63,990 bases of DNA, filler included, from Asterionella formosa (GCA_002256025.1; 17 parts of 17 records of this genome joined end to end with filler, not necessarily neighbours in it); one strand, 5' to 3'; shown: positions 1-45,490, counted from the whole stretch's first letter. Translations and numbers: made by a program. The notes: generated by a model from the letters alone, not told the origin.

Positions 1-556
1 ATCATCATTGTACGAAACGAGTGCAAGGTCAGGGCGAAAGCGTTTAGAAGGAGGGCCCAAGATCTCGGTCATGATCTGCCAATATATTTTTATGAATTGA
101 GAGTGTCGTATGAATATACTACCGGTAGGGAGGGTCTTCAGTCAATCTTGGCTGTATCGTATGATAATGCATTTCGGGTGTATGGACAATGTATGGCTGC
201 TGGTACCAAGTGTACCTGCTACCAGGGTAGCCTGCTACCAGGTACAATGGTACCTGGTACCGGTAATTGTGTGGGCCAGGACAAGCAAGTAGCACCAATG
301 AAAAAACTACGCACCGTTACGACCGGTACTTATCTATGTATCAATCAATCATAGTACCAGGTACCAGGTACCAGGTACCGATAATAAGATTAATTACCGT
401 ATCATGATATATACCGGTATATCTCATAGTGCGTATAGCTAGCTAGTTCATAGATATTTTTATGCAGGAAAGAAAAGGAGCTCAAAATTATCAGTTGGCT
501 GAAGTCCAATTTTGCTTCATTCTAAAATCATTTATTCAAATTGCAAAAAGGTAATA

Positions 557-20233: not shown

Positions 20234-20689
20234 TTCTTTTTCTAATTACACAATATTTGGGGCCTAGCATTCAAAAAGGGATCCACAATATCGAATCTCC
20301 GGCGGCCTCCTGGTTGTTATAAGAAGTTTTTTGATGAGGACTTAAAAAGGAAACGGCCTTGCTATTCTCGATGACCGCGGTTTTCCTTTGCTCATTACGA
20401 GGATCTGTTCGGGAGTAGTGGTCACATTTTTACGTGTACTCCCTGTAGTTACGGCGCGGACAATGAGCGTACTGGTACCGGTACCAGAGGAAGGTCCAGT
20501 AATCGAGAAATAGTTTAGCTGAATGTTTTTTATGTAAAAAACGTGTTTTACCGGACCTTAGAAGCAGGTAGAATATGCTGTCGTGGAGGAGTTTCGAGAA
20601 TATTTTTTTGGTGGGTGGTCAAGAATACCAACCAGGTAGTAATCATGTGACCTTTGTGAACAAGCTATGTACCTGGTACCCTGGTACTG

Positions 20690-28141: not shown

Positions 28142-29027
28142 GCATCATAAAGCGTCCCTTGGAGTCTGGAACTACTGCGGGGTGTTCTGACACTGGCTGA
28201 GGTTTAATTTGTTGGAGGCTAAAGAAATTTGTCAGAGTATTTCCGGCACCATGCCGTCATTTATAGACATTCTGACCGCAACAGAATTGCCACTCAATTT
28301 CTAGTATAATAAAATTAGTGGTACCTGGTACCCTGGTACAGCAAAACAGAAGAAGGCTATCTTGCGTTGCTATGTAGCTCGTTCAATCGTTCTAGCGAGG
28401 ATACGGTTGCTCTCAATAACCAAGGTTGATTAGTTTGCAACTGTGTATACTCTGAATCCCGGTTCCATCATAAAAATAATAAATCTATCTTACTCCTATA
28501 ATCAGCCTAAGACTACAAATGTTATTCTGTTAGTTAGACCTATGTGGTCCTCCTTTCCGAGTCCTAGTACCAGGTACCAGGTAGTAGCAATGATTAGCTA
28601 TTTCTGCAAGCAAGTGCAGAAAACACAGCTAATTGAGTAATAAAGCAGCCAGAGCAATGTATCTTCATGGTGCAAAATCAAATTGAGCAGAGAATTTATA
28701 AGAGGACTTCAGGGATGGAACAGGTAAGTGGGATAGTAAGCACCTTGTCCAAGATAAATGTTTGACGTTGGACACCTACTCTGGAACCTTTTGAGTACCA
28801 GGTACCGTAGTACAGGCAGGATAGCAATTGTTGGGTTCGTCTCCCACACTCCTTGCCGTCCCGCACGGTCTTGCCTGCAAGTACAAGAAAAAGTGGGACT
28901 CGGCTGATGTTAGCATTGGTGCGTTTCTTCTTATGGAACAACAAACAACAAGAACGGAAGAGAGCTGTCGATTGATATGCGCATGCATCAATGCTTTCTT
29001 TGATTGGCTGATGGACCAGCACCAGCC

Positions 29028-30542
29028 ATGTTTAAATTGCGGACCAGCCTACATCAGGTGCTGAGAAGGAACGCAATCCTCATTTCGCCACCACTGCGAA
29101 ACCTTTCGGGTTTCCCATGGTTAAGTAGCCCATCGTCACAAGATGCGGAACACTTATTTCAGTGCATGGATCAGCGTGAAGGCTCCGTTGTTACTGATCC
29201 ACAAACTGTTGATCCGTACAACACCGATTGGAACAAACAATACAAAGGCACTTCGACGCTGTTGCTCCGGCCAAAGACAACCTCAGAGGTTTCGGCGATT
29301 CTGAAGTACTGCAACGAGAAAAAGATTGGAATTGTTCCGCAAGGAGGAAACACGGGGCTTGTTGGGGGCAGTGTACCTATTTACGATGAAGTCATCTTGA
29401 GCATGAAGGGACTGAACGAGATTGAGGGCTTGGATGAAGATACCGGAATACTGAGGAGTGGGGCTGGTTGCATTTTGCAACATCTTCAGGAATATACAGC
29501 AACTCGAAACTTTATGGTACCCGTAGATCTAGGAGCCAAGGGGTCATGCTGTATCGGTGGTAATGTGGCGACCAACGCGGGGGGACAATACTTTTATCGA
29601 CACGGCTCCCTTCATGCAAATGTTCTTGGCTTGGAAGTTGTGTTGGCTGATGGACGTATCTTGGATCTAATCTCGTCTGTCAATCTCAAGGACAACACTG
29701 GATACGATCTCAAACATTTATTCATTGGAGCGGAAGGAACACTGGGTGTGATTACCAGAGTTGCTCTCTTATGTCCACACCTGCCGCCATGTAGGAATTC
29801 AGCTTTCTTAGCTTGTAACACTTTTGAGGACGTTCTCACGACACTCAGGCTAGCAAAAGCAGTTTTGGGGGAAGTTATGTCTGCCTTCGAATACATGGAT
29901 AGAACTGTGTTAAATATGGTTGCAAAAGGGAAGGAGCTTCCGTTGGTGCAAGGCGACGGTTCAAGCTACCCTTTCTGTGTCTTGGTCGAAACTCAAGGCT
30001 CACAACAACAGCACGATATGGAAAAGATTGAGACATTTTTAGAGCAATCAACGGAACAAGGATGTGTTGTGGATGGTGTTTTGGCTCAAAACCTCACGCA
30101 AGTCCATGCGATGTGGGAGATTCGAGAATCATGCAATCCGATTGTATTGTCGAAAGGGTACATCTACAAATATGACATCTCGCTCCCAGTCGGAGACTTT
30201 CAGGATTTCATTGCAGAGATGAAAGGGCGAATTCGTGACCATCCCACAGCTCAGATGGTAACCTGGGGCCACGTCGCTGATGGAAATATGCACTTCAATG
30301 TCGTGACTCCAGGATCACATGAATTGGATGAAGCATTGAAGGAGAGCATAGAACCCTCTATTTTCGAGTCGGTTGTTCGGCGAGGCGGGTCTGTCTCAGC
30401 TGAGCACGGTTTGGGACAATGTAAAAATAACTACCTCCCAATGGCAAAAGGCAAGATAGCCTTGCAGTTGATGCATTCGATGAAAACCTCATTAGATCCA
30501 AATCGGATATTGAATCCGGGAAAATATTTGCCTTCTCCATAA
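29028..30542 (+). CDS. D-2-hydroxyglutarate dehydrogenase-like FAD-linked oxidoreductase, mitochondrial
   Basis: PQGGNTGLVGGSVP, DLGAKGSC.IGGNVATNAGG, KDNTGYDLKHLFIGAEGTLG, GHVADGNMH, SAEHGLG, LNPGK. First ATG at 29028. Confidence 0.88.
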   Translation: MFKLRTSLHQVLRRNAILISPPLRNLSGFPWLSSPSSQDAEHLFQCMDQREGSVVTDPQTVDPYNTDWNKQYKGTSTLLLRPKTTSEVSAILKYCNEKKIGIVPQGGNTGLVGGSVPIYDEVILSMKGLNEIEGLDEDTGILRSGAGCILQHLQEYTATRNFMVPVDLGAKGSCCIGGNVATNAGGQYFYRHGSLHANVLGLEVVLADGRILDLISSVNLKDNTGYDLKHLFIGAEGTLGVITRVALLCPHLPPCRNSAFLACNTFEDVLTTLRLAKAVLGEVMSAFEYMDRTVLNMVAKGKELPLVQGDGSSYPFCVLVETQGSQQQHDMEKIETFLEQSTEQGCVVDGVLAQNLTQVHAMWEIRESCNPIVLSKGYIYKYDISLPVGDFQDFIAEMKGRIRDHPTAQMVTWGHVADGNMHFNVVTPGSHELDEALKESIEPSIFESVVRRGGSVSAEHGLGQCKNNYLPMAKGKIALQLMHSMKTSLDPNRILNPGKYLPSP

Positions 30543-30751
30543 AGAGTTGTTTCAGTTCTACAGCTAACCAAGATTTGGCCTGAAGTCAGCTTTCTTGACA
30601 GAATTACTTTTATAATATAGATGAATTCATAACACTGTAGTTTTAAGCACAAAGGAAAGTCAATTCATCCTGTATGACAGAAACGGAAATCAATGGTGCA
30701 GTAAAATGGCGATGGATTACATTCAAAGTCTTCAAGAGATAGAAAGACAGC

Positions 30752-32633
30752 TTAGTTTCCCGACATCATAGCCTTTAGATCCTCGTGAGCATTCCCAGTA
30801 GGCATAATGTTGTAGTTCTCAACGAGGACACGCAAGACGTTCGGCGTGATATACGCCGGAATCGAAGGCCCTAACCGAATGTTCTTGACTCCCATACTTA
30901 GTAGGGTCAACAAAACGGCAGCAGCTTTCTGTTCCAAATGGCTTATAGCGAGGGATAGGGGTAAATCGTTAATAGAGCAATCCAACGCTTTTGCGAGCTC
31001 CGTAGCAACCACGATCGCAGAATAGGCGTCGTTACACTGACCCATATCCAATACGCGAGGAAGACCATTGGCGAGCTTTGCGCCCATAAGCTTTTCGCTG
31101 TTGATAAGACGGTTCTTTGCGCAACCAAGAGTCAAAATAATAGAGTCGTCAGGGGTCTCCTCGGCAAGTTCAGTGAAGTAATTCCTATCCCATTGCTGAG
31201 TGAAGAGCAAAGGTTAGCTAATCGATGCAACAGTGACAGCAGCAACAAAGTAGCAATTTCAATAATCTTACAGTGCCATCACAACCACCAATCAAAAAAA
31301 TGCGAGAAAGTGCACCCGACTTTGCCGCATCAATGATCTGATTTGCCAGAGGAAGGACCACACGATGATTGAATCCAACGGTATGATATCGGGCCGGTTC
31401 AATTGTCGTTTTGAATCCCTTCTCTTTCTGTGCCTGGGCTATCACAGGAGAGAAATCGCGGGTTTCGCCGATGTGTTCCACTCCATCAAACCCAACTTCG
31501 TTCATGGTGTAAATACGCTTCTTGTAAACACGACGAGGCTCAATAATGCAGTTGGTAGTCACAACGACTGGGCCAGGGAACATGGCAAATTCAATCTTTT
31601 GGTTTTGCCAGGCCGTCCCGTAGTTGCCAACAAGGTGAGAATGCTTCTTCAGTTCAGGGTATCCGTGGGCTGGAAGCATCTCGCCGTGGGTGTAAACATT
31701 GATTCCCGTGCCTTCCGTTTGTTCCAACAGAGCTTTCAGGTCAGCCATATCGTGACCAGAAATAAGAATTGCCTTTCCTTCAACAGCAGAAACTTTCACT
31801 TCGGTGGGCACCGGTGAGCCATAGGTATCAGCATGTGCCGCGTCAAGTAAGTTCAAGACTGCTCCGTTGATTTCTCCCACACGAAGCGCGTTGGCTAACA
31901 GCCCGTTCATGTCAGCTTTGTTCGAATCAAGCTTGGCCCAAACCTCATGAATGCCAGCCATGATATCCTCGCCGATAGTACCACGAATTTGCCACACGTG
32001 CGAAGCATATGCAGAGACTCCTTTTATTCCATAGGTTCCAATTTCATTCAAAGAAAAGCAATCATTATCTCCCATCCGATTTTGACGAACAGGAACTGAA
32101 ACTGCTTGCCCAAACTCCTCTAGTTCAAAATTCGTGAGACCGGAATGCAAGGACAGCTCAGCCACATGCCCAGTTGGAGTGTGATTTGGAACCAACTTCG
32201 CCAACTCTTCCTGGAATTTGATCCCTTCACGAATGTATGTGGCGATGCGATCCTCGGAGAAGTTAACGTTTGTCATGGTGCTAAACGCTGCTTTGATGGT
32301 CCATTCGTTGATGGCGGGAGACACCGGTATTCCAGCCTCTCGAGCAGCAACGGCCCAGATGGAGACGGTTTTGATCACTTGAATCAAGGTATCTTGAATG
32401 GCCGAAGTCTCTGGAGCTTTGCCGCAGACCCCAAGAGTCGTGCATGCGTAGTTATCTTTTGTTTGCTCACATTGACGACAAAACATGGCCGAATCGGTCA
32501 CCATGGGTTGTGCTGTCGAGAAAGATCTACTTTCTTGCAAAAACGAAGCTGGGTAAACAGTGGGACGAACAAAGCGAAACGCTGAATGAACAGAGCGACG
32601 GCCAATTTTCGAAGCAGCAAAGCGAAACATCAT
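30752..32633 (-). CDS. hcp: Hybrid-cluster protein (prismane; hydroxylamine/NO reductase); exons 32633-31272 and 31195-30752, 601 aa
   Basis: [14 protein letters not shown] (C-x2-C-x8-C-x5-C) and hybrid-cluster ligand motifs SGHD, THGEMLP, TTNC, GGCDG, LGCAK, GQCND, EQKA. A 76-nt GT-AG intron 31271-31196 splices in frame. Arg/Ser-rich presequence of about 45 aa. Confidence 0.95.
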
Positions 32634-33648
32634 CTTGACGAATAAATTACGAATTAAGATTTAGTGGACCGGTAGAATTATGTTATTGACGAAGAATATA
32701 GGATTGTGATGTTCTTTGCTTGAAGGGTCGGATGCGAATTTTTTTTGTGTCAATCGATTTTACATGAGATCGATGCATATTCCGGTAAATACGTAGCTAT
32801 CATTGGCTGTTGAAACACAGCGCCAAATTAACAAAGAAACTGTAGAATGTGTTCGCATTGGGGTATAGACATATTGCAATACGGATCTTACAAAAACATC
32901 AACCAAAAGGGGTTCGGATTCTCGTCGGATTCATCCTACATACCGGTACCTGGTACCGGTAGTATGTTCAGCCGAGTACCTGGTACTGGTACCAGGTACC
33001 TGATGGTAAGCTCGGTGTCACCTCAAGGAGATCAATTTTGATACTGTGGCTGATGCTTAAATGTTTTCTAGCGTTTACGAATACAAAATAAGAACGGTAC
33101 TGGTAGATTGAGGAATAGTACCGGTACCTGGGACCTGATAGAAGACCACACACAGGTACCAATTGCAAAACATTTGTATTTCTATACATATATTTTTATA
33201 GTCGAATGGTCGGCGATTACGCCAGAGCGAACGCAAATACCGCTATGTATGCCAAGAATAGGAAGTGAAGCCAAGTACCGGCACTTGAAGGTCACAAGGC
33301 CATAAGGGTGTCATCAATTTAACTGGTACCCTGGTACTACAAGGTACTGGCACTGGTACCAGGTACCGGTCCTGGCAGGCCACAAACGTTTTCCCATTTC
33401 TTTACCCATGAAGTGGTACATAGAGTTGTACCAGGTACAAGGGGGGTGGTACCGGTACCGGAATTCACTCCAAACGAGGTGCGAACGCATCGAACAATGC
33501 GTTAATCAAAATATCAAAACCAGACATGCGATGCCTGCACATGAAGCAATGCTCAGCAATCAATGTCAACATACGGTACGTAGCTTTGTGATAGCATCAC
33601 AAACATCGCATTTCATTTGCTCACAAATCGAGCGGATCATTTGATATA

Positions 33649-35547
33649 ATGATACACCTGACAAGCCTCTGTCGTTCTTTCTCTCACCATCTCCAAACCT
33701 TGAGCCTTGGCCAATTTTGTCGAACGACAAATCTATCCCAACGAGGATGCCTTTCCAGATTCATGAGCGCTTTGGCTTCGCCCAGGCCGATGCGCATTCT
33801 CTGGGGTTCCCAGGGAGGCACGGCTCAAATATTTGCCATGCAGCTCCAGGAAGCTCTTGAAGAGGAATATGATGGTGTCGAGGTTCAAACTATGGGTCTG
33901 AATGAATTCTCGCCCAGCGAGATTTTGAAAGCAAATGCACTCAACATTTTGGTTGTCAGTGTGACTGGCGTCGGCGAACCACCGGAGAATACACGAGAAT
34001 TCTATAACTATTTAATGAACGATCCTACGTTACCCGAATCGCTGGACTATGCAGTCTTTGGACTGGGTAATTCAAAAGCACATCCGAATCAGTACAATGT
34101 GATCGCTAAAGCTATTGATAAGAAACTAGAAGAAAATGGCGGCAACCGACTCTACGAATTGGGACTCGGTGATGACGGAGACTGTATTGAAGAAGATTTC
34201 GATATTTGGATGGGAAAACTAGTTTCTTCGCTGTCTAATGGGGGATTGAACATGCCGAATTGGGTTCAGGACGTTGCAGGAAATCATCCCGATATTGCGG
34301 TTGTTCAAGCTATCGAGCGAAGGGAGTCCTCGAGGTATCAACCGCTTATGTTGCTTCCGGCAGCGAACGATGCTGTCAGAGAAGATCTCTGTGATCTAGC
34401 GTCACCATATTACCAAGCAGATTTCAAAAAGTTCCTCGTGACTGAAAATAGACCCCTCAGCATCGGTGCAGGGGAACAGTCACTCAGAGAGATAGTAATC
34501 TCCACTGAAGGTCATGATGTCCAGTATGAAGCTGGCGATCATGTAATGATATACCCTAAAAACTCAAATTGCATGGTCGAAGCATATGAAGCCCTTATTG
34601 AAGTTGACCCTCACTCTATGATTGAAAGTGGCAACCTAAGTTCAAACTATCCGCATCCGACTTCCTTGACTATTGCTGAGACCCTGACTCACTGTGTCGA
34701 CTTGAGTGCAGTTCCTTCACCCGCCTTTGCTCGATTCCTTCTTGGTAGGAAGGAAATCGATTATAGAAACGAAGTTGCAAATCCTCGCAGAACTGCTTTG
34801 GATCTCATTCATGAATCAAACAAGATCCCGTCGCTTGAGGACTTGCTCTACGGTCTTCCAGCTTTGATGCCTCGATACTACTCTATTGCATCGTCCCCTC
34901 TAGCGAATCCTGATCAAATATATCTGACATATAGGCCAGTGAAATACGTATCTACTAGAGGCCATCTTCGCGAAGGTGTCTGCACGTCATATCTATCCAC
35001 ATTGGGTGTTGGCGAAACAGGTCAATCTTCCGTCATCGCCTCTATACGTTCGAATCCTTCGTTTCGGCTTCCCCTTGACAACTTGACCCCCATCTTGCTG
35101 ATAGCTGGTGGTTGTGGTATTGCTCCTATTCGATCTTTTCTTGAAGATCGGCTTGCGGGAGACCATAACAGCTTTGGAGACTCGCACTTATTTGTGGGCT
35201 TTCGTTCGCCCGGAGATGAGGTGTATCGGCCCTTGATGGACAAAGCTGCAGCTTGTGGGGTCATCAAGGATGTGCAAGTATCATATTCTAGAGGCTGTGT
35301 TTCTGCAGAGCAGAAGTGCTGTTTTGTCTCAGACACTGTCAGGGCTAACAGCTCGGTAGTTTGGGACTTGATAGAAGGCGGTGGTCACATCTATGTATGC
35401 GGAGGCGCCAGAGGCTTTGGAGTATCAATTGAACAGGAGTTGCTTTCTGTCTTCAAAGAACACAAGAAAATGGATTTGACTGAAGCTACCGATTATCTGC
35501 GTGAGCTTGTCAAAGAAGGGCGGCTCTGTGAGGATATTTCCGACTAA
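33649..35547 (+). CDS. Soluble diflavin (FMN+FAD) NAD(P)H reductase, CPR/NOS-reductase/CysJ fold, with putative mitochondrial presequence
   Basis: Flavodoxin motifs WGSQGGTA, TGVGEPPEN, AVFGLGN, LGDD. FAD motifs RYYSIASS, GVCTSYL. NAD(P) motifs GGCGIAP, YVCG. No N-terminal membrane anchor. Confidence 0.9.
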   Translation: MIHLTSLCRSFSHHLQTLSLGQFCRTTNLSQRGCLSRFMSALASPRPMRILWGSQGGTAQIFAMQLQEALEEEYDGVEVQTMGLNEFSPSEILKANALNILVVSVTGVGEPPENTREFYNYLMNDPTLPESLDYAVFGLGNSKAHPNQYNVIAKAIDKKLEENGGNRLYELGLGDDGDCIEEDFDIWMGKLVSSLSNGGLNMPNWVQDVAGNHPDIAVVQAIERRESSRYQPLMLLPAANDAVREDLCDLASPYYQADFKKFLVTENRPLSIGAGEQSLREIVISTEGHDVQYEAGDHVMIYPKNSNCMVEAYEALIEVDPHSMIESGNLSSNYPHPTSLTIAETLTHCVDLSAVPSPAFARFLLGRKEIDYRNEVANPRRTALDLIHESNKIPSLEDLLYGLPALMPRYYSIASSPLANPDQIYLTYRPVKYVSTRGHLREGVCTSYLSTLGVGETGQSSVIASIRSNPSFRLPLDNLTPILLIAGGCGIAPIRSFLEDRLAGDHNSFGDSHLFVGFRSPGDEVYRPLMDKAAACGVIKDVQVSYSRGCVSAEQKCCFVSDTVRANSSVVWDLIEGGGHIYVCGGARGFGVSIEQELLSVFKEHKKMDLTEATDYLRELVKEGRLCEDISD

Positions 35548-36419
35548 TATAATATCTACCGTTGGGACTGAACCGATTATCCGTCAACTTTGCATGGGTT
35601 GGCATTCTAATCTTACCGACAAGATTTGGTCAACTTTTTAGTGTTCAACATAGACTGACAGCGACAGTAGAGATCATTTGAATGAACCATCATGTTAATG
35701 TGGTAGCCAAACCGTCTTATTTTTACCTAGGACATTGCAATGCATAATAATTACGAGTTTCAGAGGCGAGTGTACAATTTAAAATTTAAATTATGCCGCA
35801 CTTGGTCTATTCGTGCTAGTATCACGCTTTCGATGATGCTTGCTTTGCTGAGACAAAAAATATCGAAGATCTTCATTGCTCGCCTTTCTTACCCTTTCTC
35901 GTTCCTCGCATCCACGAGGAACTTTCATGAGGAACTCCACTCTCTCATCTGATTTTCCAGAACATTTAGATGAAATTGAAATTGATTGTTGAAACAGGGA
36001 TCGAATGTAATCAGTGTTTTTGATCTTGGCTTTAAGCAATGACGGTTTTGGGAGAGGGTCGATGTGGAGCGATAACGGTGCTGATTGAGGTGTATTTTTT
36101 TGATTAGCAGGTCTGCGAACTTTTGTATAGTCGATGAGCTTGCTCGTTGATCGTGGCAAACCTGATGGCTTTGGGCTAGATTCAATGGCGAGCGACTGAA
36201 GTGCATCGTCTTTGTCAGGCCCAATTGGTTTGCTTGTTGATCGTGGTAATATACTACTTGGACCACCAGATAGGGCGGGATGTTTGATTCTCTTTTGGGA
36301 CCAGAAAAAAGCACATTAGATTGATATTCTGTATTACAGTTCCTGCAATTAACAATCAAACGTACATGTTCACAGCGAAACTTCTTGGTCTTGAAAAGAA
36401 AACTCACAACCTTTGTGAC

Positions 36420-39346: not shown

Positions 39347-40039
39347 TCATGCTAACAGTTCCCACTTCCAAACTACAGATGTAGACTGGAAAATGATACA
39401 TTGAAAATGTTTTGTATGCTCTGTGGGTGATCTTCGATGTGTTGATTGTTGTTTATATCATTCCATAAAAGCAGTATTCAGCCCTTCTAGTCCAGACTGA
39501 TCTGTGTCAAGAATTTTTCTTGCTGAGATTGGCTCACGACTAAATATTGCTAGTAGATCGACTTCCACATCTTTGCCTTCAACATGTGTAGCCCTTTTAA
39601 TTAGGAGAAAATACTATTCAATGATGCATCTAAATTTAAAGGAAAGTAACAATAAGGTTTTCAAATTTAGCCTCAAAGAGAGACTGAAATCAGCCTAATG
39701 AGCCAGAAAGAACCTGGCTATAATTCACTCCCAATCATTCTTCCCACCATACCACCTGCAGAGCAAGATAGGCCAACTTTTGACGAAAACGATATTTCTT
39801 TAAGTAATTTAGGAAAATGTTTTTCTTATTTGCTGATTGATGACGATTTGCAGGATCATACTCTGAACACAACTCGGATTTGCTGCCTTATCAACCGGGT
39901 CAGCCAACCGTCTTCTAGCTTCACAATACAAATAGAAATCATTTTACATTTAGAACTTGCTGGCAACGACTACTAGAATTTGCTGACAAAGACTAGAACT
40001 TGCAGGCAAATACAAATAGATTTTCTGAAAGACCCTTAC

Positions 40040-41356
40040 TAGCTAATTGAATTGTTGAACAAACATTTGGTAGTGGTAAGAAGGTCTGCCATCTTGGTGC
40101 TAACATGGCCATGTAGATGCTGACCCAATCACCCCAGCACTCCAGCGGACTCATTGTGGAGTAGTTTTTTCAGGGTGATCGGCAGACATAATATGAATAT
40201 AGCTAGGTCTAGGTGGCTTGTTTGTGTTAGGGGATGCATGTCATGTTTGTGGATGAAGAAACAATTTTTAGCACTAGTAGTGCCAGTGGGCATGCTGGAA
40301 TTGGCCCCAAGGCTTTGGAACAACTGTTCAATCTCTAAACCATTGAAGGTGTCTCAAAGATGGGCTGTGCTACAAGTTAATTGTTCCTTGTAGCCAGCAA
40401 TCTTGCCAGTGTCTGGATGTAAAGCAGGGCCATGGAAGCAACATTCAATGACAATATTGGCTGCCAACAATGCAAAGTGATGGGAGCGGTGCACATGATA
40501 TGTTTGTTCAAGGCAGCTGGAGGGACCGGGCGCAGAGACTTGCATTGGACTTTGCGTCGTTGACAGCCCTGTATACTAGTCGCTAAGAAGTCATAAGTTC
40601 AAGCTGGTTAGTACTGTGGGCATGCAGTATAGCAGGCTTGGGGAAATACGTAAAAGGAAGTGGCCACCAGTAGGAGTGGGGGAACTGGTTTGGACTGAAG
40701 GTCCAGACCTACAAGAGGATCGTCAAAAGTGATATTCAAGGAAGGGGGTACCACCCTCAGAGACAGGTAAGAGCGCTGGAGGGTGCAGGCAAAGGGGCCA
40801 TGATAGGGTGATCAGGAATTGTAGTATGAACTGGATTGCATGGCACTTCCAGTGTAGTGTCCATCCTCCGTGGTGGAACAAGGACGCGGTTTGGTACAGT
40901 GGTATCAGGGGTGGAGGGAAACCATCATAAGGTCAAGGAGCTGTTGCAGGGTGGCGTAGTGGGTATGTGAAAGGGGAGCAACTGGAGAGCGCGAAGTGGG
41001 GTTGGCCAAAGCATGCGCAATATCTTGTAAGCTGGTCGAAATAATATCGATGGATGAATTACAAGGTAAGACCACTTTGGTAGTAAACCATGACACTGTA
41101 TTGCAGATACGCATTGAATGGGTGTCTCACATCCAAATGCAATAAGAGTCGACTGCAGGGCCCATGTACCAGCCCTCAAGGGCAAGCGGGGACCATGTCA
41201 TGCGGTGTTGTGCTTTAGCATGAACCCTACAGCCAGGGGGGGGGCAGAGGGGTATAATTTGTAATCATAGAAACCATTCACTTGGGACCATGCAGACAAT
41301 TTTGGATTGATACGGAACCCACTTAGAAAATTGAGGGTGAGTTCAGCTTTGGGGAA
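40040..41356 (-). pseudogene. Degenerate CoDi/copia pol remnant (integrase C-terminus to start of RT)
   Basis: Fragments in shifting frames: KAELTLNFLSGFRINPKLSAW, RICNTVSWF..LQDIAHAL, HPDTGKIAGYKE, MPTGT..FFIHK, VSTKMADL..KCLFN. Confidence 0.75.
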
Positions 41357-41423
41357 TGGCTTAGTGGTTAACACACCTTCTGTGGTGGCGGGTTCGATTC
41401 CTGCATTTTCCACCTCTCTTTTT
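41350..41423 (+). ncRNA. tRNA-derived sequence (pseudo-tRNA or SINE head) with Pol III A and B boxes
   Basis: A box TGGCTTAGTGG at 41357-41367, B box GGTTCGATTCC at 41391-41401, T-arm GCGGG/TTCGATT/CCTGC, imperfect acceptor pairing, T5 at 41419-41423. The anticodon/variable arm is too short for a functional tRNA. Confidence 0.5.
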
Positions 41424-41571
41424 CATGTAGTCGCTAGGGTTCTGGGGGGTGCGGTGACGAAAAGATAGGTCCCATTGTATCGTATGGACGAATAAAACCA
41501 GTACAAATTGTTTCCATTTATTTGGGCCCAAGTGCGATTATTGGATAGCTTTAGCGAACTATAAAATTTAA

Positions 41572-42799
41572 GGTTGCTGCATTTGAACCCCTAGCTCGAG
41601 GTAGGGTTAATAAAATAATATTCAGTCAGACTAATCAAACACATACTTTACAAGTATAAATTAAAAATGTATAACGCTCAACGGAGCTTTCACCAATAGA
41701 CACCCTTACCATATGCTTAAATACAGTCTTCGGACAAAGTAGGGGTGTAGGTTCACTCAATATATCGTCAGTATATAGGATCTGGTCAGAAACTGCAGAA
41801 AGGAACTTCGGTTTTTTAGCTATGCTAAAAAGACTCGAAATTTCGGGGGAAATCTGTTTATTTGGCATAGTAAAAAAACCGAAGTTCCTTTCTGCAGTTT
41901 CTCGCCAGAAGTTATATACTGGTGCTATTTGAAAGTTACCTATGTATCTAAATCGCCGTCAGACCCAGCCAACGTTTAGCTACCGTCGTCCAAAAACTCG
42001 ACAAAATCGGCCTTTTCTACGGTCGCCAAAATATCGGAATCAGAATTATTAAGTGCCGAAACATCATCATTGGAATGGCAGTCGTGTGCCGGAATTTTTA
42101 GTCCTAAAATCTCCTGTCCAAAAAATTCCATTGTAAGTACCCGCTTCCACATACATAATATGATTGGTGAGCATGAAGTACATTCCTCTGTTTGATTGGC
42201 CTGGTTTGCGAGGTCGTGCAAACCCACGCTGGCCACATTGGATTAACATGTAACATTTTCTTGGGTGTACTGACAGTCCGGTGCTATATTCACGACGGGT
42301 ACCAGTAGATGATCATCATTGGACATACCGGTACGCGTACCGCTCCTTGGGTGCACTTTCAAATATTTGCCGAGCCGCCGGGTCGTATACATGACCCATA
42401 TTCGTCGATAGGAGAATACATTGTAGTACTGGTGTATGCACATGAAGCGATGTAGAACCTAAATATATATATATATATATGTGTGTATTAAACGATTTGA
42501 ATATGTCGAACGGATTCAATGCATAGCATATAAAATCGTTAATCGGAGTATAGAGTGTCCATGCATACATGTTGATCGTATTTTAGCATATATATACATT
42601 CAGCGACTTAGAGTGTCAATATATATATTTAGCGATTTTGACAAGGAATCTATGTACGTATTCGCAAATTTCCACTGATTCAAATATTTCAAATGGAATC
42701 ACGTCATTCAAAAATAGCTAATTAAATTCTTAATTCCAGGGATTTTTCGCAACCCTAAGCAATATTTTAATTTTTGCCTAGGGGTTCAAATGCAGCAAC
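41572..42799. mobile_element. Non-autonomous TIR element (~1.23 kb), possibly PIF/Harbinger-like
   Basis: Perfect 22-bp inverted repeats GTTGCTGCATTTGAACCCCTAG (41573-41594) and its complement (42778-42799). Left flank reads TAA|GG. No long ORF. Contig ends in the right TIR, so the TSD cannot be confirmed. Confidence 0.8.
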
Positions 42800-44761: not shown

Positions 44762-45490
44762 TCATTATGGTAATAATTAGGAGGATCATTTAGTTTATAT
44801 TATTGTAATTACGGAACTGTTATGTTTTGATTATCAATAAGTAGGGTATGTTTTTGTTAAACTGTTTGTTGAAATTTACTTTTACACTCTTCTTTATGGA
44901 TGTTTCTCTGATGATGATACATACATGGTGAGCGATGCTTGTTTTGTAAACTCGTTCATTTTGCATACAGAAGGATCCATCAACATGGACATGGACATGG
45001 AGATGAATAGCACACCGTCACCATCTGGGGGTAGCCGGAATGAAACAAGTCCTTATATAATGTATTCGCAACAGCAACAAATCAGAAATGATTCCTCGGA
45101 GAAAGTGATGAGTGAGTACCAGGTACTGGTACCAAGTACCTGTCGTATCCCCGTCGTCTTGATCTACAGTATTAGGGGTTTATTATATATAGAGAGGAGG
45201 ATCAGAACAGCTGGATATGTTCCGATCCTGAGAATTTGAGAAAAAGGATTACGTATGCACTATTTACAGGAAGAGAGGAATGGATTGACCATTGGAGGTC
45301 ATTTCCATTTTTCACAATTTATATCATAATTTTAGTTTACGTTTTACATTTTAACCTTTATTATCCGGTATTGCCACTGAGAATATCGTCACTGTTTAAG
45401 ACGGTTTCTGGTTAAGAAGGTTAGCCAGCCCCCATTTTCCCTCCACTACCTAATATAAAGTTATGTATAGTGATCACGTTTTTACTATTT

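What the first reader, a model, noticed from the sequence alone, without database searches (positions are those of the whole stretch)
30752..35547. Head-to-head hcp + diflavin reductase: candidate eukaryotic, mitochondrial replacement for the bacterial Hcp-Hcr NO-reduction module
Seen: an intron-containing hcp and a soluble FMN/FAD reductase diverge from a shared 1015-bp spacer on one contig, and both have Arg/Ser-rich, acid-poor N-terminal extensions. Known: E. coli Hcp is a high-affinity NO reductase (to N2O) fed by the co-transcribed NADH oxidoreductase Hcr (FAD + 2Fe-2S). To my knowledge no dedicated electron donor is established for algal HCPs. This Hcp has C-x2-C-x8-C-x5-C spacing, not the class II spacing that goes with Hcr. 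Inference: the neighbour is a dedicated non-Hcr Hcp reductase co-regulated from a bidirectional promoter, forming an organellar NO/hydroxylamine sink and a possible N2O source.
Basis: partly seen in the sequence, partly recalled or inferred. Interest (0 to 1): 0.85.

Follow-up and report, generated by a model that had tools for sequence, protein, structure and literature searches.

The report
Diatom Hcp with paired flavin reductase
A diatom keeps the gene for a nitric-oxide/hydroxylamine-reducing iron-sulfur enzyme back-to-back with the gene for an unusual soluble two-flavin reductase, both apparently sent to the mitochondrion, which makes the reductase a strong candidate for this enzyme class's unknown electron donor.

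Summary
Its 76-nt intron is spliced out in RNA contigs of 3 runs. A 632-codon diflavin reductase diverges from it across 1015 bp.

The interpretation passed every test I could run.
- The divergent pair recurs in 7 of 8 testable metagenome loci of the family and in 0 of 64 loci of other diflavin reductases.
- 56 of 74 long Hcp relatives from other eukaryotes are fusions of a diflavin reductase to Hcp, using a different reductase lineage.
- The diatom reductase belongs to a separate clade. It lacks CPR's membrane anchor and the FAD-stacking Trp at CPR's C-terminus.
- Both proteins and their orthologues carry mitochondrial-type presequences ending in R-x-F-S.

Not shown: binding, NAD(P)H preference, substrate (NO or hydroxylamine) and co-regulation. 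The complex prediction was not folded.

The held literature calls the partners of class I Hcp unknown, and my searches found no paper linking Hcp to a diflavin reductase. This scan noted a similar pair earlier in Naegleria gruberi.

Verdict: a new variant of the Hcp-plus-reductase module, of high interest.

The parts
30752..31195 (-). hcp exon 2 (147 codons, 31195..30755) plus stop codon 30754-30752
   Evidence: Translation P0002. Prismane profile positions 369-513. The exon junction is in RNA contigs.
31196..31271 (-). hcp intron, 76 nt, GT..AG, phase 0, placed just after the GGCDG hybrid-cluster motif
   Evidence: Sequence. The joint 31195/31272 'skips 76' appears in runs X1, X2 and X5.
31272..32633 (-). 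hcp exon 1 (454 codons). It holds a presequence of about 49 residues with an R-S-F-S-T motif, then the C-x2-C-x8-C-x5-C motif for the [4Fe-4S] cluster, and most of the hybrid-cluster domain.
   Evidence: P0001. Pfam and NCBIfam. PDB alignment. N-termini of orthologues.
32634..32821 (-). hcp 5' leader, as far as RNA contigs reach
   Evidence: X1 record 2 reaches 32821 and X2 record 10 reaches 32805. Contigs cannot fix the true start.
32822..33441 (.). Core of the shared spacer, the presumed bidirectional promoter. No spliced or high-depth RNA contig of X1, X2 or X5 covers it. It holds a cluster of GGTACC(W)GGTAC repeats at 32937-33466.
   Evidence: The repeat is dispersed through the window and is not specific to this pair. 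No k-mer is shared with the spacers of five related loci above shuffles.
33442..33648 (+). Reductase 5' leader, as far as RNA contigs reach. The contigs start at 33442 (X1), 33526 (X2) and 33586 (X5). Out-of-frame ATGs lie at 33497-33563. An in-frame stop lies at 33592-33594.
33649..35547 (+). Diflavin reductase CDS (632 codons plus stop). It comprises a presequence of about 47 residues (R-F-M-S at 37-40), an FMN domain, an FAD domain with the R-Y-Y-S-I-A-S-S motif, and an NAD(P)H domain. The C-terminus ends ..E-D-I-S-D, without the Trp that CPR carries there.
   Evidence: P0003. Pfam. PDB alignment. Family columns. The X5 contig 33586-35624 covers the whole CDS.

Best explanation
This is a nuclear two-gene module of a diatom. 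It encodes a mitochondrial hybrid cluster protein (Hcp, with class-I-type cysteine spacing) and its dedicated electron donor, and the two genes are transcribed divergently from a shared spacer.

The donor is a soluble diflavin reductase derived from the CPR stock. It belongs to a distinct family that I call the 'EDLAD' family after its C-terminus.

Proposed path (inferred): NAD(P)H gives a hydride to FAD. Electrons then pass one at a time through FMN to the N-terminal [4Fe-4S] cluster of Hcp and on to the hybrid Fe-S-O cluster. There NO is reduced to N2O, or hydroxylamine to ammonium.

Shown here: the gene structures, transcription of both genes, splicing, the conserved divergent linkage, the separate clade of the reductase, and presequences of mitochondrial type on both families.

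Inferred: physical electron transfer between the two proteins, the nucleotide used, the substrate and the compartment.
For: 1. Linkage in metagenome loci. Among the loci fetched with the reductase family profile, 16 are family-level (36-47% identity) and 8 of these have at least 1 kb upstream. Seven of the 8 (L002, L006, L007, L008, L009, L012, L015) carry Hcp on the opposite strand upstream, head-to-head, 0.3-1.8 kb away. L006/L007 and L008/L009 are near-duplicates, so 5 of 6 are distinct. None of the 64 loci of other diflavin reductases has an Hcp match. L002 is 95% identical to a Skeletonema dohrnii protein, so the linkage also holds in a centric diatom.

2. Linkage in the hit lists. Sixteen reductase hits share the 'longest contig' length and a source with an Hcp hit, on contigs of at least 6987 nt. 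These include Seminavis robusta (39711), Cylindrotheca closterium (340335) and a Bacillariaceae MAG with adjacent locus tags SGBAC_005909/005910.

3. Fusions. 56 of 74 Hcp relatives longer than 795 aa carry FAD_binding_1 with Prismane, mostly also Flavodoxin_1. The reductase is N-terminal and Hcp C-terminal (Pfam on P0253). They come from fungi, an ichthyosporean, oomycetes, a pelagophyte and others. Their Hcp part has the same C-x2-C-x8-C-x5-C spacing.

4. A distinct family. IQ-TREE puts the EDLAD group on one side of a branch (21 rows, SH-aLRT 96) and the diatom core likewise (13 rows, 100), apart from the CPR-like rows (FastTree). An N-terminal hydrophobic anchor is present in 0 of 82 family proteins against 33 of 37 CPR-like neighbours. 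CPR's penultimate Trp aligns with Ser/Ala.

5. Targeting. An R-x-[FYLW]-[SAC]-[STA] motif lies in the last 35 presequence residues of 47 of 89 Hcp orthologues (2.3 expected) and 40 of 82 reductase orthologues (3.1 expected), but of 0 of 37 CPR-like neighbours.

6. Expression. Both mRNAs are assembled in the same polyA/cDNA libraries, and the reductase contigs include the upstream ATG.

7. Literature (passages read). [quoted passage not shown] Acanthamoeba HCP is mitochondrial by microscopy and is induced by anoxia (PMC13632651).
Against: - No direct evidence of binding or electron transfer.
- The fusion reductases are a different lineage: 21-30% identity to P0003 and a separate clade with support 100. 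They show that Hcp can be fed by a diflavin reductase, not that this one feeds it.
- Linkage is not universal. L018 (37% identity, 2862 nt upstream) has no Hcp. In Cyclostephanos tholiformis the two proteins sit on contigs of different length, 227562 and 941198.
- By my reading of the and tables, 41 of the 57 reductase hits on contigs of at least 6.9 kb have no length-matched Hcp among the 120 listed Hcp hits. That listing shows only the best 120 of 8000, so this proportion understates linkage.
- Divergent gene pairs can persist through shared promoter elements without any functional link.
- No conserved promoter word was found.
- The FMN domain is as acidic as CPR's, median net charge -14 against -16, so nothing in its overall charge points to a new partner.
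- Co-occurrence across whole genomes could not be tested.
Confidence: 0.65

Rival explanations
1. The reductase is a general-purpose mitochondrial diflavin reductase. It would feed, for example, a mitochondrial P450, cytochrome b5, haem oxygenase or an Fe-S assembly step. On this reading its position next to hcp reflects only a shared, long-lived bidirectional promoter.
For: - It is closest to CPR among solved structures: 220 bits, against 131 for CysJ and 96 for MTRR.
- Its FMN domain has CPR-like charge.
- Linkage is absent in L018 and apparently in Cyclostephanos.
- Members of the wider EDLAD clade outside the diatom core were not shown to be linked to Hcp.
Against: - The head-to-head arrangement survives while reductase identity falls to about 40%, in both centric and pennate lineages.
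- Hcp is independently fused to diflavin and other reductase modules in many eukaryotes.
- No other acceptor is suggested by any neighbouring gene.
Confidence: 0.2
2. The reductase is simply the diatom orthologue of a known enzyme (microsomal CPR, NDOR1/Tah18 or methionine synthase reductase), and its position next to hcp is chance.
For: - Source annotations call the relatives 'NADPH-ferrihemoprotein reductase' or 'P450 reductase'.
- The language-model search lists NDOR1 and CPR clusters at 0.95.
Against: - No membrane anchor: 0 of 82.
- No C-terminal Trp.
- A separate clade from the anchored, Trp-ending rows.
- Lower PDB scores to the MTRR FAD part (96 bits) and to the NDOR1 FMN domain (53 bits, against 76 for the CPR FMN domain).
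- A mitochondrial-type presequence.
- Recurrence of the pair excludes chance.
Confidence: 0.05
3. The pair works together, but not in the mitochondrial matrix. It would act in the cytosol (if the shorter reductase start at Met39 is used), in the plastid or in another compartment.
For: - A public gene model (P0004, 594 aa) starts at Met39.
- RNA contigs cannot fix the transcription start.
- Out-of-frame ATGs lie at 33497-33563.
- No targeting predictor was available.
Against: - The R-F-[LM]-S motif spans that Met and is conserved in the closest orthologues, whose presequences lie upstream of it.
- Neither family shows a signal-peptide-like hydrophobic core: no TM-like window in 0 of 82 reductases and low hydrophobicity in the Hcp presequences.
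- All three RNA contigs include ATG 33649.
- HCP is mitochondrial in Acanthamoeba (PMC13632651).
Confidence: 0.1

Closest known systems
E. coli Hcp-Hcr (class II hybrid cluster protein with its co-transcribed NADH oxidoreductase)
   Same: An Hcp encoded next to a dedicated pyridine-nucleotide-dependent flavoprotein that would feed its N-terminal [4Fe-4S] cluster. The overall Hcp sequence is closest to PDB 7DE4, at 510.8 bits. That 7DE4 is the E. coli protein is recalled.
   Different: The partner is not homologous to Hcr. It is FMN + FAD diflavin and has no FAD_binding_6 or 2Fe-2S domain. The Hcp lacks the longer class II Cys motif, which PMC10502027 ties to work with HCR. The genes are divergent eukaryotic transcription units and not an operon, and the products carry mitochondrial-type presequences.
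Eukaryotic diflavin reductase-Hcp fusion proteins (about 1160-1280 aa). They are uncharacterised. [quoted passage not shown]
   Same: The same three reductase domains and the same Hcp type with C-x2-C-x8-C-x5-C spacing, but on one polypeptide. This points to the same electron path.
   Different: The reductase part is a separate lineage: 21-30% identity and its own clade. It ends in Tyr/Phe-containing junctions and has a neutral FMN domain. The Hcp parts are only 33-43% identical to the diatom Hcp.
NADPH-cytochrome P450 reductase (CPR)
   Same: Best match among solved structures over the whole length, residues 45-630. Same domain order. Conserved R-Y-Y-S FAD motif.
   Different: No membrane anchor. 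A mitochondrial-type presequence in its place. No FAD-stacking Trp at the C-terminus. The column of CPR's 2'-phosphate Arg is not conserved (R in the query; commonest residues S 17, T 4, A 3, G 3, K 3 of 37; the role of that Arg is recalled). A separate clade.
Assimilatory sulfite reductase CysJ-CysI
   Same: A soluble diflavin flavoprotein that feeds a metallo-enzyme reducing a small nitrogen or sulfur oxyanion-type substrate. This is the closest mechanistic analogue. CysJ is the best NCBIfam model.
   Different: The score of 226 bits is far below the CysJ cut-off of 668. The acceptor is Hcp and not a sirohaem protein.
Head-to-head Hcp + CPR-like reductase pair of Naegleria gruberi
   Same: As described there: the same arrangement, the same two domain families and mitochondrial presequences on both.
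   Different: I could not obtain the Naegleria sequences, so it is not tested whether its reductase belongs to the EDLAD family (searches found no look-alike).

Membership tests
Hybrid cluster protein (Pfam PF03063; NCBIfam NF003658 hydroxylamine reductase) | Full-length match to the family models above their cut-offs | tested here: met
   Prismane scores 303.6 and 173.1 bits on the two exons and together covers profile positions 1-513. NF003658 scores 453.6 bits on exon 1 alone, against a cut-off of 367.
Hybrid cluster protein | Four N-terminal Cys for the [4Fe-4S] cluster and seven conserved hybrid-cluster ligands | tested here: met
   H294, E318, C362, C451, C479, C508 and E542 (P0124 numbering) are invariant in 35 orthologues and are identical in the two printed PDB alignments, 7DE4 and 1GN9. 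That these seven are the ligands is recalled; PMC10502027 states only that there are seven conserved ligands.
Class I Hcp | Short Cys motif C-x2-C-x8-C-x5-C, no class II insertion, and the roughly 100-residue middle region retained | tested here: met
   Spacing read. PDB 7DE4 has 3+1 extra residues within the motif. The alignment to the class I chains 1GN9 and 1E2U runs end to end, while the 506-residue chains 7E0L and 7WSX match only from query residue 246.
Class II Hcp with Hcr | Long Cys motif (C-x2-C-x11-C-x6-C) and an adjacent Hcr gene (FAD + 2Fe-2S) | tested here: not met
   Motif. The neighbour has Flavodoxin_1, FAD_binding_1 and NAD_binding_1 only. The overall sequence is nevertheless nearest to 7DE4.
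NADPH-cytochrome P450 reductase (CPR) | FMN, FAD and NADPH domains in this order | tested here: met
NADPH-cytochrome P450 reductase (CPR) | N-terminal membrane anchor | tested here: not met
   A 19-residue window with Kyte-Doolittle mean of at least 1.8 occurs in 0 of 82 family presequences, against 33 of 37 CPR-like neighbours.
NADPH-cytochrome P450 reductase (CPR) | Penultimate C-terminal Trp stacking on FAD (its role is recalled) | tested here: not met
   Query Ser631 aligns with the Trp of human CPR. In the family this column is A in 33 and S in 4 of 37. The 15 commonest endings cover 104 of 120 proteins, and none holds W.
NADPH-cytochrome P450 reductase (CPR) | Placement inside the CPR clade | tested here: not met
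   The EDLAD rows form one side of a branch (96) against the anchored, Trp-ending rows (89). The rows carry no names, so the label 'CPR-like' rests on the anchor, the Trp and the PDB scores.
CysJ (sulfite reductase flavoprotein) | NCBIfam TIGR01931 at or above its cut-off | tested here: not met
   226.2 bits against a cut-off of 668.15
NDOR1/Tah18 and methionine synthase reductase | Orthology to named members | tested here: inconclusive
   PDB scores are lower than for CPR: MTRR 95.6 bits, and the NDOR1 FMN domain 53 bits against 76.5 for the CPR FMN domain. No named references could be put into the tree because the listing of cluster members was off. Both are cytosolic proteins ending in Trp, by recall.
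Eukaryotic reductase-Hcp fusion family | Reductase part orthologous to that of the fusions | tested here: not met
   21-30% identity and 47-144 bits. The fusions form their own clade with support 100.

The most novel reading that the evidence does not exclude
Trp-less, anchor-less 'EDLAD' diflavin reductases are the long-sought physiological electron donors of class-I-type Hcp in eukaryotic mitochondria. The pairing is old: it is kept as a divergent gene pair in diatoms and, per earlier notes of this scan, in Naegleria, and it is re-invented as gene fusions with another diflavin lineage in fungi, oomycetes and others. On this reading it gives diatom mitochondria an NAD(P)H-driven NO-to-N2O (or hydroxylamine-to-ammonium) route. 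That route would operate in darkness and anoxia, and would link diatom nitrate respiration to marine and lake N2O release.
Probability: 0.35. Interest if true: 0.85.

Novelty: new variant of a known kind. Interest (0 to 1): 0.72.

Why it matters
A 2023 structural paper states that the electron-transfer partners of class I and class III Hcp are unknown, and that finding them matters for understanding how the classes separated (PMC10502027, passages read). Reviews of algal nitrogen cycling leave open whether algal HCP is an NO reductase at all (PMC7412212, passages read).

A conserved gene pair, together with independent fusions, names a concrete and testable donor. With it, the activity of eukaryotic Hcp can be reconstituted with its own reductase and NAD(P)H in place of artificial dyes.

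Diatoms store and respire nitrate in dark, anoxic sediments (cited in PMC7412212), and HCP transcripts rise at depth in field diatoms (PMC6787086). A mitochondrial NO/hydroxylamine sink with its own reductase would therefore bear on N2O budgets and on diatom survival in the dark.

Tried and rejected
- **Own genome.** None is held, so paralogue counts and genome-wide co-occurrence could not be done.
- **Protein atlas.** It lists NDOR1 and CPR clusters at equal score and does not discriminate.
- **Shared promoter words.** In six spacers (the window plus L002, L006, L009, L012, L015), the best 8-mer, CCGAACCC, occurs in 4 of 6. That is within the shuffle range.
- **GGTACC(W)GGTAC repeats in the spacer.** They are real (38 matches against 0.42 expected) but occur in several other intergenic places of the window and in none of four of the five related spacers. 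I rejected them as a pair-specific element.
- **Net charge of the FMN domain.** Family -14, CPR-like -16, fusions 0. No signal of adaptation.
- **Supplements of PMC13632651.** Searched for an Hcp partner. Only abundance rows for the HCP accession were found, and no annotation of a partner. File 3 was cut when stored, so a partner listed there could have been missed.
- **Earlier findings by place and by sequence.** Nothing.
- **X7 contig across the spacer.** It runs 31976-34054 at depth 7 with 34 differences and 18 gaps. I read it as DNA or a related strain, not as a joint transcript.
- **Relative depths of the two mRNAs.** Not used, as the tool warns against ranking genes by contig depth.

Full report
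**What is there**

The window region holds two divergent genes.
- hcp lies on the minus strand. Exon 1 is 32633..31272 (454 codons), the GT..AG intron is 31271..31196 (76 nt), exon 2 is 31195..30755 (147 codons) and the stop is 30754-30752.
- The reductase is a single open frame on the plus strand from ATG 33649 to the stop at 35545-35547 (632 codons).
- The two ATGs are 1015 bp apart.

Pfam and NCBIfam confirm the families. Both hcp exons match Prismane, and the hydroxylamine reductase model scores 453.6 bits on exon 1 alone (cut-off 367). The reductase has Flavodoxin_1, FAD_binding_1 and NAD_binding_1.

The nearest relatives of both proteins are diatom proteins, so the window is diatom nuclear DNA by homology.

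**Transcription**

RNA contigs of four public runs were laid on 30600-35700.
- The joint 31195/31272 (skips 76) is in 3 of the 4 runs (X1, X2, X5; two studies). This confirms the intron. The 601-aa product equals the length of the transcript-derived protein P0124, which is 99% identical.
- hcp contigs run upstream to 32821 (X1) and 32805 (X2).
- Reductase contigs begin at 33442 (X1), 33526 (X2) and 33586 (X5). All of them include ATG 33649. It is the first in-frame ATG after the stop at 33592-33594.
- About 620 bp (32822-33441) are left as the presumed promoter core.
- Contigs cannot fix transcript ends or rank expression. What is shown is that both genes are transcribed in the same libraries.

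**The Hcp**

The N-terminal motif reads C-x2-C-x8-C-x5-C. In the alignment to the best PDB match (7DE4, 510.8 bits), the PDB chain has 3+1 extra residues inside this motif. The class I structures 1GN9 and 1E2U align end to end.

PMC10502027 (passages read) says that the longer Cys-rich protrusion of class II is what works with HCR. The same paper says that the partners of class I and class III HCPs are unknown.

The seven positions that I recall as hybrid-cluster ligands are invariant in 35 orthologues. So this looks like a functional Hcp with class-I-type cluster geometry on a body closest to the 7DE4 sequence.

**The reductase**

Among solved structures it is nearest to CPR over its whole length:

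| Solved structure | Score (bits) |
|---|---|
| CPR, full length | 220 |
| CysJ | 131 |
| nNOS reductase | 130 |
| MTRR FAD part | 96 |
| CPR FMN domain | 76 |
| NDOR1 FMN domain | 53 |

It is nevertheless not a canonical CPR.
- A search of 1.84 billion cluster representatives shows a family with scores from 685 down to about 256 bits, and then CPR-like proteins at 237 bits or less.
- FastTree on 131 rows and IQ-TREE with a mixture model on 45 rows both put the family on one side of a branch. In one search the wider group has 21 rows (support 96), the diatom core 13 rows (100), the CPR-like rows 16 rows (89) and the fusion reductases 8 rows (100).
- No family presequence has a membrane-anchor-like window (0 of 82), against 33 of 37 CPR-like neighbours.
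- The C-terminus ends ..E-D-L-A-D, or ..E-D-I-S-D in the query. CPR's penultimate Trp aligns with Ser631. In the family that column is Ala in 33 and Ser in 4 of 37.
- The column of the Arg that in CPR binds the 2'-phosphate of NADPH (role recalled) is Arg in the query but mostly Ser, Thr, Ala or Gly in the family. NADH use is therefore possible but not shown.

**Is the pairing more than chance?**

Metagenome loci. A profile of 37 family members fetched 80 metagenome loci.
- Sixteen are family-level (36-47% identity).
- Eight of these have at least 1 kb upstream of the reductase.
- Seven of the 8 carry Hcp upstream on the opposite strand, 0.3-1.8 kb away. Two pairs are near-duplicates, so 5 of 6 are distinct.
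- The exception, L018, belongs to the earliest-branching lineage of the core clade.
- None of the 64 loci of other diflavin reductases has an Hcp match.
- L002 is 95% identical to a Skeletonema dohrnii protein, so a centric diatom shares the arrangement.

Hit lists. Independently, 16 reductase hits and Hcp hits share contig length and source on contigs of at least 6987 nt. These include Seminavis robusta, Cylindrotheca closterium and a Bacillariaceae MAG with adjacent locus tags.
- Two further length coincidences (2764 and 1954 nt) are on contigs too short to hold both genes. I count them as chance.
- Counter-cases: Cyclostephanos has the two genes on contigs of different length. By my reading of the and tables, 41 of the 57 reductase hits on contigs of at least 6.9 kb have no length-matched Hcp among the 120 listed. 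That list shows only the top 120 of 8000 hits. At least one 'miss' (P0122, which is L008) is in fact linked.

**Fusions**

Of 74 Hcp relatives longer than 795 aa, 56 carry FAD_binding_1 with Prismane, mostly also Flavodoxin_1. The reductase is N-terminal and Hcp C-terminal (Pfam on P0253).

The named ones come from chytrid and zoopagomycete fungi, Sphaeroforma, the oomycetes Aphanomyces and Thraustotheca, and the pelagophyte Chrysophaeum.

Their Hcp part has the same C-x2-C-x8-C-x5-C spacing. Their reductase part is a different lineage from the diatom one. So eukaryotes have coupled this type of Hcp to a diflavin reductase at least twice, once by fusion and once by divergent gene pairing.

Other fusions join Hcp to cytochrome b5 plus a b5-reductase-like module (P0295) or to rubredoxin plus a flavin reductase (P0298). 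They make the same general point.

The only mention of such a fusion that I found in print is a table note on Cyanophora (PMC8003979).

**Compartment**

Hcp orthologues have a median of 57 residues before the first Cys. Reductase orthologues have a median of 56.5 residues before the flavodoxin motif. These stretches are basic, Ser/Thr-rich and acid-poor.

| Protein set | R-x-[FYLW]-[SAC]-[STA] motif in last 35 presequence residues | Expected from shuffles |
|---|---|---|
| Hcp orthologues | 47 of 89 | 2.3 |
| Reductase orthologues | 40 of 82 | 3.1 |
| CPR-like neighbours | 0 of 37 | not computed |

This is the R-3 type cleavage motif of the mitochondrial processing peptidase (established knowledge, recalled).

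In the query reductase the motif is R-F-M-S, and a public gene model starts at that Met (P0004). Conservation of the motif in the closest orthologues, and the RNA contigs, favour the longer form.

HCP is mitochondrial by microscopy and is induced by hypoxia or anoxia in Acanthamoeba (PMC13632651, passages read). No targeting predictor was available here.

**Mechanism proposed**

NAD(P)H reduces FAD, then FMN, then the Hcp [4Fe-4S] cluster, then the hybrid cluster. There NO is reduced to N2O, or hydroxylamine to ammonium. The electron path follows from what is known of diflavin reductases and of Hcp-Hcr. None of its steps was tested here. The complex prediction was not folded.

**What is known, and novelty**

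- 'hybrid cluster protein' with 'diflavin': 0 papers.
- 'HCP', 'cytochrome P450 reductase', 'nitric oxide' and 'protist' together: 0 papers.
- 'hybrid cluster' with 'P450 reductase' and 'fusion', 'hybrid cluster protein' with 'fused' and 'eukaryot', and 'hybrid cluster protein' with 'flavodoxin' and 'mitochondri': judging from the listed titles and abstract openings, none of the papers returned deals with such a partnership.
- Diatom papers treat HCP as a stand-alone 'hydroxylamine reductase'. The library lacks most subscription journals. I did not see van Lis et al. 2020 (FEBS J); I know it only through citations.
- Earlier AI notes of this scan describe a similar head-to-head pair in Naegleria gruberi and say that it recurs in distant eukaryotes. 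My diatom data agree with that. I could not test whether the reductases are the same family.

I class the finding as a new variant of a known kind: an Hcp with a dedicated reductase, where the reductase is non-homologous to Hcr.

**Verdict**

Confidence in a dedicated partnership is 0.65. Interest is 0.72.

Noticed in passing
window 212-379, 20668-20680, 28320-28806, 32937-33466, 45115-45140: There is a dispersed heptad-like repeat, GGTACC(W)GGTAC: 38 matches with at most 1 mismatch, against 0.42 expected. It clusters in intergenic stretches. The copies in the hcp-reductase spacer also appear as loose ends of many unrelated RNA contigs. It could be a genome-wide promoter or transposon-derived element of this diatom.
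   Followed up: partly
window 29028-30542 (+): The convergent neighbour of hcp is an FAD-linked oxidase (FAD_binding_4 + FAD-oxidase_C; D-lactate/D-2-hydroxyglutarate dehydrogenase-like) with a basic N-terminal extension. Its stop lies about 210 nt from the hcp stop, and the X5 RNA contig on hcp runs 1712 nt beyond 30600 towards this gene.
   Followed up: partly
window 33649-33765: A public gene model of the reductase (P0004, 594 aa) starts at Met39. This cuts the conserved R-F-[LM]-S presequence motif, so the model is probably 38 residues too short.
   Followed up: yes
proteins P0295, P0298, P0299: There are other Hcp fusions: Hcp + cytochrome b5 + b5-reductase-like module (P0295), rubredoxin + flavin reductase + Hcp (P0298), and a 4Fe-4S ferredoxin domain + Hcp (P0299). 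Hcp has been joined to several kinds of electron-donor module.
   Followed up: partly
P0003 residue 548 and family column: The residue aligned with CPR's 2'-phosphate-binding Arg is Arg in the query, but in the 37-member alignment the commonest residues are Ser (17), Thr (4), Ala (3), Gly (3) and Lys (3). Together with the missing C-terminal Trp, this hints at relaxed or NADH-directed coenzyme use.
   Followed up: partly
window 36001-63990: G+C drops from about 0.45 in the first 36 kb to 0.33-0.41 in most 2-kb bins after 36 kb. The bin 40001-42000 is an exception, with G+C 0.455 and a strong GC skew of 0.18.
   Followed up: no
window 31976-34054: One low-depth contig of run X7 (an RT-PCR metatranscriptome) crosses the whole spacer with 34 differences and 18 gap positions. 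It is probably DNA or a related strain, and not a joint transcript.
   Followed up: no
Seminavis robusta, Epithemia clementina: Some diatoms have two Hcp paralogues (Seminavis P0199 and P0207; Epithemia P0217 and P0226). In Seminavis only P0199 shares its contig length with the reductase.
   Followed up: no
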